Notes under the pieces: model-generated
Told to the model about the DNA's origin: nothing
Database searches by the model: none
Seen by the model: only the letters and a program-made list of their open reading frames with translations
Program-made: the position numbers and the translations under genes
In this document: in pieces, positions 26,148 through 28,300 of the stretch
Position numbering within the stretch: the stretch's first letter is position 1
Layout of the letters: every line of letters begins with the position of its first letter
NCBI GenBank assembly: GCA_051294375.1
Contig: CM119270.1
Span: 1-43,481 of the forward strand
Reading direction: 5' to 3'
DNA length: 43,481 nucleotides
DNA from: Paraspadella gotoi
Taxonomy: Eukaryota > Animalia > Chaetognatha

Positions 26148-28300
26148 TTAAGCAGGCAAAGGATCTTCCTCCATTTTGTCGATTTCAGTTTTATTCTCTC
26201 CTCCTCCTCTTCCTCCTCCTAATTCCCATTGCGGGAGTTGAAGGAGGACGGTGGGAAATGGGCCAAATAGGACGAGGATGACCCCGCCGAAGACGACCAA
26301 GAACCCTAAGAGAGAGGGAGAAAGGAGAGGGAGTGTTAAAGAGTATATCTCATTATAAGTTTAATTATTTGACTCTAATTAGTTGATTTTTATGCCTTGA
26401 ATTTGAATATCTGGTCTCTCATTGGTTAATTATAACAAATAGTTGTTTTGATATGTATACTTAAAATGTTAACTTTCCTCTCATTAGTTGTTTATAATTT
26501 ATACAAGAAGTGTAAATACTTAATTCTTGGGACATTCCTCTTAAACCATCAGGTATTAAATGAAGTTTATGAATTTGCTTGAAAATATTAATTAATTTAA
26601 AGTTTTCATACAGTTTTGAACTGCTGTTTGTCGCTCCCATGACTGTCGTTTATATCCTCGTAATGTTGTATATTGAATATTTAATAAAATTACTTTTCTA
26701 CATTTATATTTTGGTGTTAGAATTAATATTAAGTCATATGAGGCAGAAGAGAAATAAAAGAGTTTGTTACTTTAGCTTGATCACATCGCTCATTGAGTAA
26801 AGTCAACTAATTACCCTTAGGTCGCAGGTTTAATCTCCACCCCACAACGTACAGGTAACGTGAGGGCAGTCATAAACCGCCTTGGGTGCGCAGCGACCCC
26901 ACAGGCCCGGTTCCAAGCCCAGGACCCGTTCCATGGCTTTAAGAGTGGCTTACCGAACTTTGAAAAGAAAGAAAGAAAGAAAGAAAGAAAGAAAGAAAGA
27001 AAGAAAGAAAGAAAGAAAGAAAGAAAGAAAGCAAGCAAGCAAGCAAGCAAGCAAGCAAGCAAGCAAGCAAGCGATGAAGGCTCTTTCTCTCACCAAATAA
27101 ATGATTGATTCTGAGAGGTTCTCTCAAAATGACGACATTAAAAACTAGAAAGGCGACGAGAATAACGATTTCAGCGATGGCGCGAAGCGTCGCCGCTGTC
27201 AGTCGGGCCTAATGAAAAATGAGAGATTGGATCATTTGTCTCATTGTTATCATTGCTCATTTGTCATCTCTTCTCACATTGTTATCTGAGATCCCCTTTA
27301 ATTAAATCAATCGATCAATCAATAAATCAATATTGTCACCTGCTGATGTCCGATTCTGTTGGCAGGAACTTGCAGGCAATACTCGGCGCCCGCAACGAAC
27401 CATGAGATGAATATGGCTTGGGGCATCGACCTAAGAGGGAGAGAGAGAGAGAGAGAGAGAGAGAAATAGAGACAGATAGACAGAGAGGGGAAACGAAGGG
27501 AGAAAGAAAAGAAAGTAAATAAAAAAAGAGATATGAAAAAGAAAGAGGGAGAGGGAAAGAAAGAGATATGGGTGAGAGAGATATAAAAAGACAAAGAGAG
27601 AGAGAGAGAGATAGAAAACCGAAGATAGACAGATAGAATGAGGCAGAGAGATTATACAGAAAACGTCTTTACTTGCCAGACCTCTGGCATGGCCTTGATG
27701 TGCCCCGGCCTCATTTCTCTCTCTCTCTCCTCTCTCTCTCTCTCTCTCTCTCTCTCTCTCTCTCTCTCTCTCTCTCTCTCTCTCTCTCTCTCTCTCTCTC
27801 TCTCTCTCTCTCTCTCTCTCTCTCTCTCTCTCTCACCACTGCTGGGCGAATTTAAGATGAAGATACCAGGCGACAATCATGACGCAACACGACGCCATAA
27901 GGAGAAGAACAGAAAATGAAATCCACCCAGCGAGAGCAGATTCTATGGCAGGAAGGCCGGGCAAGGCTGAAGTAGAGGTGCGTTGATTAATCAATCAATC
28001 AATCAATCAATCAATCAATCAATCAATCAATCAATCAATCAATCAATCAATCAATCAATCAAGCTTACTAATTTGCGCCGTTTTCAACACATGACTTTCC
28101 AAACTCGGATTGGATGTTGTCTTTTCTTTCCATTCATCTTCATCCGCAACAAATGAAGGATTTGAACTCAAAAAATTCCCTTCTGATTTCGAGATGACGT
28201 CATTTTTGACGTCATTTGACGTCATTCGTGACGTCATGTTGCGAATGATGTTTGATGCTTCTGGAGAGGCGACCAGAATGGCGGAGGAAGAAGTCTCCAT
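26148..28300 (-). CDS. DMT_6/DUF486 (PF04342, COG3169-like) small multi-pass membrane transporter, 5 exons, 241 aa
   Basis: Exons 28300-28069, 27966-27837, 27430-27340, 27208-27094 and 26305-26148. All introns are GT-AG and phase-consistent, total 726 nt. Core sequence LLLMASCCVMIVAWYLHLKF..SMPQAIFISWFVAGAEYCLQVPANRIG..RLTAATLRAIAEIVILVAFLVFNVVILREPLRINHLFGFLVVFGGVILVLFGPF matches the family signatures M..AWY.HLK and SW..A..EY.LQVPANRIG. Confidence 0.88.
26785..27072 (+). mobile_element. tRNA-derived SINE-like copy with (GAAA)n(GCAA)n tail, in intron 4 of the DMT_6 gene
   Basis: GCTCATTGAGTAAAG head, degenerate B box, and the shared body GGTTCCAAGCCCAGGACCCGTTCCATGGCT. It lacks the TG..CA flanks. 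Confidence 0.7.

What the first reader, a model, noticed from the sequence alone, without database searches (positions are those of the whole stretch)
26148..28300. Intron-containing gene of the mainly bacterial DMT_6/DUF486 transporter family: candidate domesticated horizontal transfer
Seen: five short exons hidden among (GA)n tracts splice in phase into an intact 241-aa protein with AWYLHLK and EYCLQVPANRIG motifs and about 4 TM helices. It also has a ~90-aa Ser/acidic N-terminal extension and a ~35-aa C-terminal tail. Known: these motifs mark DMT_6, small DMT-superfamily proteins of unknown substrate found mostly in bacteria and not part of the standard animal gene set as I know it. Inference: four spliceosomal introns and a host SINE in intron 4 argue against contamination, so this looks like an old, retained transfer or a patchy eukaryotic relic. 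The bacterial QLKI.QE segment reads TLRAIAE here, which could mean altered specificity.
Basis: partly seen in the sequence, partly recalled or inferred. Interest (0 to 1): 0.78.

Follow-up and report, generated by a model that had tools for sequence, protein, structure and literature searches.

The report
Algal-type mini-transporter gene in an animal
An intact four-intron gene in what is likely an arrow-worm genome encodes a small four-helix membrane protein whose closest named relatives are in microalgae, not bacteria, so it was likely gained from an alga, and it is predicted to pair with an upside-down copy of itself to carry small molecules across a membrane.

Summary
Five minus-strand exons join through four GT-AG introns into a stop-free 241-aa protein, and exons 2-4 match PF04342 (DMT_6) in order. 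An unnamed database protein, P0001, is 80% identical overall and 106/113 in the core, and runs unbroken across all four junctions.

The gene sits in a 41-row subfamily (support 100/95) whose 7 named members are all microalgae. Grouping it with the nearest bacteria is rejected (AU p=0.0007). TLRAIAE marks that subfamily and is not an animal change. The exact donor is unresolved, and inheritance with repeated loss is not excluded (p=0.43).

The fold is nearest to SMR transporters (Gdx-Clo, EmrE; weak scores) but lacks their TM1 glutamate. A homodimer model (0.49 vs best control 0.00) has antiparallel contacts with the TM3 glutamates facing each other; this may be recalled from SMR structures. 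The arrow-worm host comes from unreviewed scan notes. The scan had not reported this gene before. Best reading: an old alga-to-animal transfer of a likely dual-topology exporter, substrate untested.

The parts
28069..28300 (-). Exon 1: ATG at 28300; Ser/acidic N-terminal extension (77 codons plus 1 base)
   Evidence: Open frame and GT donor. No Pfam hit. P0001 aligns from residue 64 onward. Start codon unconfirmed.
27967..28068 (-). Intron 1, 102 nt, phase 1, AATC microsatellite
   Evidence: GT-AG; P0001 contiguous across the junction
27837..27966 (-). Exon 2: TM1 and the AWYLHLK motif
   Evidence: PF04342 profile 2-24, E 1.3e-5
27431..27836 (-). Intron 2, 406 nt, phase 2 inside a Trp codon, GA tracts
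   Evidence: GT-AG. The read-through of unnamed homologue P0231 fits an intron at the same codon and phase (weak).
27340..27430 (-). Exon 3: TM2 with invariant W131, E137, N145 (EYCLQVPANRIG)
   Evidence: PF04342 profile 28-55, E 2e-9; invariant columns
27209..27339 (-). Intron 3, 131 nt, phase 0
   Evidence: GT-AG
27094..27208 (-). Exon 4: TM3 with the subfamily motif LRAIAE (R160, E164)
   Evidence: PF04342 profile 56-90, E 5.4e-5; column census
26306..27093 (-). Intron 4, 788 nt, phase 1
   Evidence: GT-AG
26788..26938 (+). Degenerate host repeat inside intron 4, antisense to the gene, with tRNA-type A/B-box-like motifs (likely a SINE)
   Evidence: 76% to the copy at 23503-23660 and 78% to 20784-20855; further family copies at 21166-21238 and about 31471-31631
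26148..26305 (-). Exon 5: TM4 with G190-x6-G197, GP motif, ~35-aa tail with an N-x-T sequon at N227 and an EEDPLP end, TAA stop
   Evidence: the tail is 18 of 36 identical to P0001, which keeps the sequon at the aligned position

Best explanation
This is an intact, intron-containing DMT_6 (DUF486) gene of a microalgal-type subfamily, likely taken up long ago from an algal or other protist donor by an animal that is likely an arrow worm, and its four-helix protein is predicted to work as an SMR-like antiparallel homodimer that likely exports a small polar molecule. Shown: the gene model, the family, membership of the algal-type subfamily, strong core conservation against a close relative, and the absence of the SMR TM1 glutamate. 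Predicted: two copies insert in opposite orientations, with the TM3 glutamates (E164/E164') meeting at the two-fold centre, and the TM2 glutamate (E137), R160, N145 and W111/Y112/H114 lining the site. Inferred: these glutamates would take the role of the SMR central glutamates in proton-coupled, rocker-switch export of a small nitrogenous cation such as an amine or guanidinium-type compound. My odds: real functional gene 0.92; donor a microeukaryote rather than inheritance 0.65; antiparallel homodimer in this animal 0.55; cationic nitrogenous substrate 0.3.
For: Gene. P0001/P0043 (JGI and Logan; longest contigs 1125 and 1011 nt) encode the joined form, 142 of 178 aligned residues identical, with core 106/113 against tail 18/36, the pattern of purifying selection. 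Integration: shared repeat families link the gene's ungapped stretch (21611-33971) to stretches across gaps, and an ENPP5-like gene lies in the window. Origin: best named BLASTP hits are Hanusia 159 bits, Heterosigma and Guillardia 144, against 100 bits or fewer for the 11 bacterial-type rows printed. The subfamily clade has 41 rows at 100/95 (35 rows at SH-aLRT 100), and its 7 named members are all algae. A clade with the nearest bacterial group is rejected, AU p=0.0007. No named animal protein appears among the 42 and 120 listed hits or the 21 clusters opened. Mechanism: the top six Foldseek rows are Gdx-Clo and EmrE (prob 0.63-0.99); VIA gives Gdx-Clo Z 8.6, rmsd 3.4, all 103 residues aligned. 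Homodimer of P0001 40-168: score 0.49, best of 3 controls 0.00, runs agree in at least 93% of contacts, pLDDT at least 74. The mark was reached by 21 of 30 microbial pairs and 0 of 23 single chains, and in eukaryotes by 17 of 29 pairs (animals 7 of 16) and 0 of 30 single chains. Contacts 82-97', 96-66', 100-67', 115-67', 126-111' and 119-119' join opposite membrane faces of the monomer (my reading, using the helices). Lys/Arg counts are balanced, 3:3 in the window protein and 3:4 in P0001. 79 of 80 bacterial loci show one copy within 3 kb. A DUF486 transposon mutant of Aminobacter fails to grow on metformin (PMC9699525, passages).
Against: The animal pair sits in a basal polytomy of the subfamily. 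Neither 'sister to all algal-type rows' (p=0.43) nor 'with cryptophytes' (p=0.46) is rejected, and the bootstrap had not fully settled. The host identity rests on unreviewed notes; my Atlas test of the neighbouring exon was uninformative on taxon. The identity of P0001's organism and its being an mRNA are inferred. Foldseek had no match with E<=0.001, and Z 8.6 lies within what unrelated helical bundles reach (ABC exporters scored higher). The dimer pass may be recalled from SMR structures: only 1 of 7 eukaryotic pairs without an older solved relative passed. The algal clade as a whole leans to one orientation (+1.25 +/- 1.7 Lys/Arg, n=40, against -0.47 +/- 1.0, n=73; boundaries chosen by me). 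A ~90-aa N-terminal extension would have to cross the membrane in the inverted copy. The metformin authors call that gene's relevance unclear and its transcript was not induced. Conserved Arg and His near the site could equally suit an anion or zwitterion.
Confidence: 0.5

Rival explanations
1. Vertical relic: the subfamily dates from an early eukaryote and was lost in most lineages, so the animal copy was inherited, not transferred.
For: The animal pair is not nested in any named algal group; a position as sister to all algal-type rows is not rejected (p=0.43). Named members span cryptophytes, haptophytes, a raphidophyte and a prasinophyte (group names recalled). One intron position may be shared with P0231. 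Most clade rows are unnamed.
Against: No named animal, choanoflagellate or fungal protein among the listed hits or opened clusters, although these groups are densely annotated (general knowledge), so many independent losses are needed. 60-65% identity to algal proteins is high for so old a split. The family also entered Chlorella separately, with Phycisphaerales at 100/99. An unreviewed note reports another algal-type gene in this genome.
Confidence: 0.22
2. Same gene and origin, but fixed topology: every copy inserts with both termini in the cytosol and works as a parallel oligomer, or as a fixed antiparallel heterodimer with an unseen paralogue.
For: Long acidic N-terminal extension; mild charge bias in the eukaryotic clade; where the Fluc fold occurs in eukaryotes it is a fused inverted repeat (PMC12808221, passages); no whole genome was held, so paralogues could not be sought.
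Against: Balanced charges in this protein and P0001, a tail sequon kept in both, antiparallel contacts in three agreeing runs, and no second copy in the window.
Confidence: 0.3
3. Direct transfer from a bacterium into the animal, followed by intron gain and an animal-specific motif change.
For: The family is mostly bacterial in number: about 1600 estimated pattern-matching stretches in the genome collection, and Atlas clusters 86-100% bacterial.
Against: The gene shares the subfamily's derived residues (TM1 Asn to Cys/Ser, K to R, Q to A, the GP motif). Clade support is 100/95, and a clade with the nearest bacterial group is rejected (p=0.0007).
Confidence: 0.04
4. Contamination or mis-scaffolding: the stretch is from an algal or protist passenger, or P0001 is a gene of the donor lineage and the transfer is recent.
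Against: The intron-4 repeat and other repeat families recur on both sides of the gaps; intron GC (0.30-0.44) matches the window (0.25-0.42); ENPP5-like neighbour; unreviewed notes place animal-type loci on the same assembly piece.
Confidence: 0.06

Closest known systems
DMT_6 / DUF486 (PF04342; TCDB 2.A.7.34 per PMC4570203), bacterial members
   Same: Whole-domain match (P0001 106 bits, E 1.3e-30, profile 2-103 of 104); invariant Y, H, L, W, E, N, E columns across 114 rows; four helices.
   Different: Spliceosomal introns; N-terminal extension and C-terminal tail; TM1 Asn replaced by Cys; LK..QE replaced by LRAIAE; GP motif after TM4. Function of the family is unknown.
Microalgal DMT_6 proteins (Guillardia theta EKX53323.1, Hanusia phi, Baffinella frigidus, Heterosigma akashiwo, Diacronema lutheri KAG8466291.1, Chrysochromulina parva, Pyramimonas sp.)
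   Same: Same clade (100/95), 60-65% identity for the best three, same derived residues.
   Different: Host is an animal by neighbouring genes and earlier notes; long N-terminal extension; own intron set apart from one possibly shared site. I found no paper describing this subfamily.
SMR transporters Gdx-Clo (PDB 6wk5, 8vxu) and EmrE (7mgx, 8uoz)
   Same: Four-helix ~105-residue core and top structural rows; G-x6-G in TM4; predicted antiparallel homodimer.
   Different: No acidic residue in TM1 in 0 of 113 rows; no Gly-x-Gly fulcrum in TM3; no PF00893 hit at E<=0.01; conserved glutamates lie in TM2 and TM3; 12-18% identity.
Alga-related genes in animals (Ciona survey, PMC3494510, abstract read)
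   Same: Algal-type genes in an animal, many related to transport.
   Different: Those families are spread over diverse animals and were ascribed to the animal ancestor; this one has no named animal relative in my searches and looks lineage-restricted.

Membership tests
DMT_6 / DUF486 (PF04342) | Score above the Pfam gathering cut-off over the whole domain | tested here: met
   Exons 2 and 3 alone pass 25 bits (25.8, 38.1) and exon 4 reaches 23.9, colinear over profile 2-90; P0001 scores 106 bits over 2-103
DMT_6 / DUF486 (PF04342) | Four transmembrane helices in a single ~105-residue domain | tested here: met
   AlphaFold model of P0001: helices 37-71, 78-105, 111-134, 140-158, pLDDT about 90 in the core
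DMT_6 / DUF486 (PF04342) | Family-invariant residues intact | tested here: met
   Y112, H114, W131, E137, N145 and E164 are present in the window protein
Microalgal LRAIAE subfamily of DMT_6 (defined here) | One clade, with TM1 Cys/Ser, R-x-x-A-E in TM3 and a GP motif after TM4 | tested here: met
SMR family (PF00893) | Central glutamate in TM1 | tested here: not met
   No D/E in the TM1 segment in 0 of 40 plus 0 of 73 rows. The lipid SMR subtype often has Asn there (PMC9574504, passage), and bacterial DMT_6 have a TM1 Asn; the register was not established.
SMR family (PF00893) | Sequence match to PF00893 and a Gly-x-Gly fulcrum in TM3 | tested here: not met
   Only PF04342 at E<=0.01 for P0001, P0002 and P0093; TM3 of P0001 has no Gly
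SMR family (PF00893) | SMR four-helix fold | tested here: inconclusive
   Top six Foldseek rows are SMRs but E 0.29-0.93; VIA Z 8.6, rmsd 3.4, 103 aligned, rank 7 among helical bundles
SMR family (PF00893) | G-x6-G motif in TM4 | tested here: met
   G190/G197; G in 40 of 40 and 39 of 40 clade rows; motif described for MDR TM4 in PMC3111387 (passage)
SMR family (PF00893) | Antiparallel (dual-topology) dimer | tested here: inconclusive
   Predicted only: 0.49 vs best control 0.00, possibly from likeness to solved SMR dimers; balanced charges
SMR family (PF00893) | Proton-coupled transport of small cations | not testable with these tools
   Needs a transport assay
Domesticated horizontal transfer into an animal | Integrated in host DNA | tested here: met
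   Introns, host repeats shared across gaps, matching GC, ENPP5-like neighbour
Domesticated horizontal transfer into an animal | Nested with support inside a donor lineage | tested here: inconclusive
   Inside the algal-type subfamily but at its basal polytomy
Domesticated horizontal transfer into an animal | Absent from other animals and holozoans | tested here: inconclusive
   No named animal hit, but most clade rows are unnamed and the lists are truncated
Domesticated horizontal transfer into an animal | Expressed and under purifying selection | tested here: inconclusive
   Contiguous relative P0001 with core 106/113 and tail 18/36 identical; no DNA of P0001 was obtained, so no dN/dS

The most novel reading that the evidence does not exclude
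An arrow worm carries a domesticated microalgal gene for a single four-helix transporter half that inserts into animal membranes in both orientations and pairs with itself, with a relocated glutamate pair in TM3 as the binding site: a bacterial-style dual-topology homodimer working in an animal cell, and the first animal member of an undescribed algal subfamily of DUF486.
Probability: 0.3. Interest if true: 0.75.

Novelty: new variant of a known kind. Interest (0 to 1): 0.5.

Why it matters
Well-supported eukaryote-to-animal transfers are harder to document than bacterial ones. The chaetognath genome paper mentions horizontal transfer only once in its main text, and the matching sentence in its review file concerns rotifers (PMC12460157; passages and three supplement PDFs searched; its spreadsheet supplement could not be read and may list this gene). 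Dual-topology homodimers are described as rare and as the evolutionary forerunners of fused inverted-repeat transporters (PMC9574504, PMC12808221; passages). A eukaryotic single-domain example would test whether the ER can build them, and the N227 sequon gives a direct read-out. The family has almost no functional literature (4 papers for five identifiers), so an animal and algal branch with defined residue swaps (TM1 Asn/TM3 Gln to Cys/Ala) offers a handle on its substrate. Against high interest: it is one small gene of unknown substrate, and the eukaryotic form already exists in algae.

Tried and rejected
RNA evidence: no RNA holder listed. The one run with a small share, X1 (kind guessed), gave a single 168-base contig at depth 2 over 27223-27390, unspliced through intron 3 with 2 differences, and nothing on exons 1-2; no conclusion on expression either way. 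No whole genome is held, so paralogues, synteny and host markers could not be searched. The metagenome scan with P0001 returned 50 loci at 34-54% identity and not the P0001 contig, so no dN/dS or spliced-leader check. Viral contigs: 54 pattern matches, none a relative. Solved structures by sequence: 0 hits at E<=1. NCBIfam: only sub-threshold matches. Guilt by association failed: neighbours of bacterial DMT_6 genes were varied (68 of 125 flanking ORFs from 21 of 50 metagenome loci scanned: pcnB in 5 loci, arginase family in 2, DUF445 in 2, a folate/C1 cluster in 1; 13 cluster representatives from 80 genome loci, no common theme). No riboswitch in 19 loci. Rfam and ARAGORN found nothing in the window. 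The ESM Atlas confirmed DMT_6 but listed only bacterial-dominated clusters and did not identify the host. The second YLHLK near 23055 was rejected as chance. PMC11968277 concerns DUF4867 and PMC2678813 retrotransposons; neither bears on this gene (passages). The shared intron site with P0231 is kept only as a hint: by my reading of the read-through proteins about 11 intron sites are visible over the core, so one match in three is expected by chance roughly 10% of the time or more. Tree rows left out: near-identical cluster members, partial proteins and intron read-throughs; one search used 35 clade rows and 44 of 110 others, one search used 42 and 18, of which P0227 fell outside the clade.
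Full report
Observation. Scanning for splice sites gave one model that keeps the frame: exons 28300-28069, 27966-27837, 27430-27340, 27208-27094 and 26305-26148, 726 nt, 241 aa, with four GT-AG introns of 102, 406, 131 and 788 nt in phases 1, 2, 0 and 1. Scanned one by one, 3 of 5 exons hit PF04342 in order (profile 2-24, 28-55, 56-90; E 1.3e-5, 2e-9, 5.4e-5); exons 1 and 5 hit nothing alone. 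The start codon is the first ATG after a stop and has a good Kozak context, but no homologue covers residues 1-63.

Independent support for the splice model. A search with the exon-3 frame found one protein, P0001 (196 aa, JGI; a second cluster member P0043 from Logan differs at 2 residues; longest contigs 1125 and 1011 nt). It aligns at 142 of 178 residues and is contiguous over all four junctions, including the last ~14 codons of exon 1. Identity is 106 of 113 in the membrane core and 18 of 36 in the tail, the pattern of purifying selection. Direct RNA tests gave no answer and are listed under Tried and rejected.

Host context. The gene lies in an ungapped stretch, 21611-33971. Intron 4 holds a degenerate repeat with tRNA-type A/B-box-like motifs, 76-78% identical to copies inside this stretch and beyond the gap; other repeat families also cross the gaps. 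Intron GC matches the window. Exons of an ENPP5-like gene lie at 13326-15488 on the plus strand. Earlier, unreviewed notes call this genome an arrow worm and place animal-type loci on the same piece. I could not test this: no genome is held and the Atlas gave no useful taxon. Contamination is unlikely; the phylum is borrowed.

Origin. The best named relatives are microalgae: Guillardia, Hanusia, Baffinella, Heterosigma, Diacronema, Chrysochromulina and Pyramimonas. By BLASTP the best three score 144-159 bits at 60-65% identity; the 11 bacterial-type rows printed score at most 100 bits. A quick mixture-model tree (79 rows, 113 columns) put the gene in a 35-row clade with SH-aLRT 100 and a long stem. 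A careful LG+G4 tree (60 rows, 121 columns) gave 41 rows at 100/95, with a bootstrap that had not quite settled. Holding the animal pair with the nearest bacterial group is rejected (p-AU 0.0007). Holding it as sister to all algal-type rows (0.43) or with cryptophytes (0.46) is not. So the subfamily is certain and the donor is not. Chlorella's copy groups apart, with a Phycisphaerales protein (100/99), which points to a second entry into eukaryotes. No named animal protein appears in the 42 and 120 listed hits or in 21 opened clusters, but one search scored only 7998 candidates and listed 120 of 399, and the 1.84-billion-protein search has no names (19 hits at E<=1e-30, next best after P0001 again Guillardia). 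I put transfer from a microeukaryote at about 0.65 and inheritance with loss at about 0.2-0.25.

The TLRAIAE motif. In a 114-row alignment the clade has R in 39 of 40 rows and A in 38 of 40 where the others have K in 72 of 73 and Q in 70 of 73. TM1 has Cys/Ser in 34 of 40 (4 gaps) where the others have Asn in 71 of 73, and the Pro of the GP motif after TM4 is in 40 of 40. These are marks of the whole subfamily, probably one ancient change, and not an animal innovation.

Mechanism. The AlphaFold model of P0001 has four core helices at pLDDT about 90. The top six Foldseek rows are Gdx-Clo and EmrE, none at E<=0.001. VIA aligns all 103 residues of Gdx-Clo at Z 8.6, rmsd 3.4, but ABC exporters and SLC35B1 score as well or better, so this is only a consistent hint. 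The protein is not an SMR by the defining tests: no acidic residue in TM1 in any of 113 rows, no TM3 Gly-x-Gly, no PF00893 hit (features from PMC9574504, passages). It may still work like one. Two copies of P0001 40-168 scored 0.49 against a best control of 0.00, with at least 93% agreement between runs and pLDDT at least 74; the alignment was not used. The mark was reached by 21 of 30 microbial pairs and 0 of 23 single chains, and by 17 of 29 eukaryotic pairs (animals 7 of 16) and 0 of 30 single chains, but by only 1 of 7 eukaryotic pairs without an older solved relative, so memory of SMR dimers is possible. The surest contacts (82-97', 81-97', 96-66', 100-67', 115-67', 126-111', 119-119') join residues that lie on opposite faces in the monomer, which means antiparallel subunits with the TM3 glutamates at the centre (my reading). 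Lys/Arg counts on the two faces are 3:3 here and 3:4 in P0001; the clade mean leans +1.25 +/- 1.7 to the side of the termini, against -0.47 +/- 1.0 in the others. 79 of 80 bacterial loci show a single copy within 3 kb, as expected for homodimers. The long N-terminal extension argues against inversion; the N-x-T sequon at N227, kept in P0001 but present somewhere in the tail of only 13 of 40 clade rows, makes it testable. On substrate, the only functional datum I found is an Aminobacter DUF486 mutant unable to grow on metformin, which its authors call of unclear relevance (PMC9699525, passages). With two invariant glutamates and the SMR likeness I commit to proton-coupled export of a small nitrogenous cation, at about 0.3. 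Gene neighbourhoods and riboswitch scans did not help.

Literature. Whole-word searches for DUF486, PF04342, COG3169, K09922 and IPR007437 found 4 papers (a looser search, added unrelated ones). I read passages of three (PMC4570203, PMC3111387, PMC9699525) and saw only the listing of PMC11172691; no passage concerns an animal member or an algal subfamily. Searches on chaetognaths and horizontal transfer (listings) showed no such report. In PMC12460157 (passages; three supplement PDFs searched) 'DMT' and 'alga' do not occur in the supplements read; its spreadsheet supplement was too large to read. PMC3494510 (abstract) reports algal-type genes spread widely in animals. PMC12808221 (passages) calls dual-topology homodimers rare and shows the eukaryotic Fluc relative as a fused repeat. 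The library lacks most subscription journals.

Verdict. A real, intact gene of a known family, in an apparently undescribed algal-type subfamily, in an animal genome. New variant of a known kind; interest 0.5. The boldest reading, an alga-derived dual-topology homodimer working in an animal, has probability about 0.3 and would merit 0.75.

Noticed in passing
window 13326-16290, + strand: Multi-exon ENPP4/5-like phosphodiesterase gene (pieces near 13326-13454 and 15273-15488 hit ENPP5 best; likely further exons near 13622, 13740 and 16200). The motif at the catalytic threonine (position recalled) reads Ser, and the following Asn-His pair reads Ser-Phe, so the active site may be altered.
   Followed up: partly
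window 24654-25760: A 378-nt inverted repeat pair at 95.5% identity (24654-25024 and 25391-25760) just downstream of the gene, like a MITE; a diverged copy near 30360-30942.
   Followed up: no
window 17229-18078: Two 216-nt direct repeats at 99% identity enclose about 420 nt whose minus-strand frame reads like the tail of a retrotransposon integrase (recalled likeness; no Pfam hit); a similar frame lies at 1231-1611. Possibly a small non-autonomous LTR element.
   Followed up: no
window 5916, 20794-20912, 21166-21238, 23439-23660, 26788-26938, 31471-31631: Repeat family with tRNA-type A-box and B-box-like motifs, 74-86% identical between copies; 5916 is a B-box motif match only. Not detected by Rfam or ARAGORN.
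   Followed up: partly
window 37019-42289 and 34126-35421: Large diverged tandem duplication (about 2.7 kb, 81%) and shorter tandem copies at 94-96%, next to small N gaps; T-rich satellite.
   Followed up: no
proteins P0017, P0013, P0018 with P0109: Chlorella-type DMT_6 proteins group with a Phycisphaerales protein (100/99), apart from the LRAIAE subfamily: likely a second, separate entry of the family into eukaryotes.
   Followed up: partly
proteins P0072, P0217, P0226: Subfamily members with a long C-terminal extra domain; P0072 carries a precomputed PF08837 hit and P0217/P0226 share a similar conserved tail by eye.
   Followed up: no
protein P0231 versus window intron 2 (27431-27836): The read-through of this unnamed homologue fits a GT-AG intron in the same Trp codon and phase as intron 2; could be chance.
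   Followed up: partly
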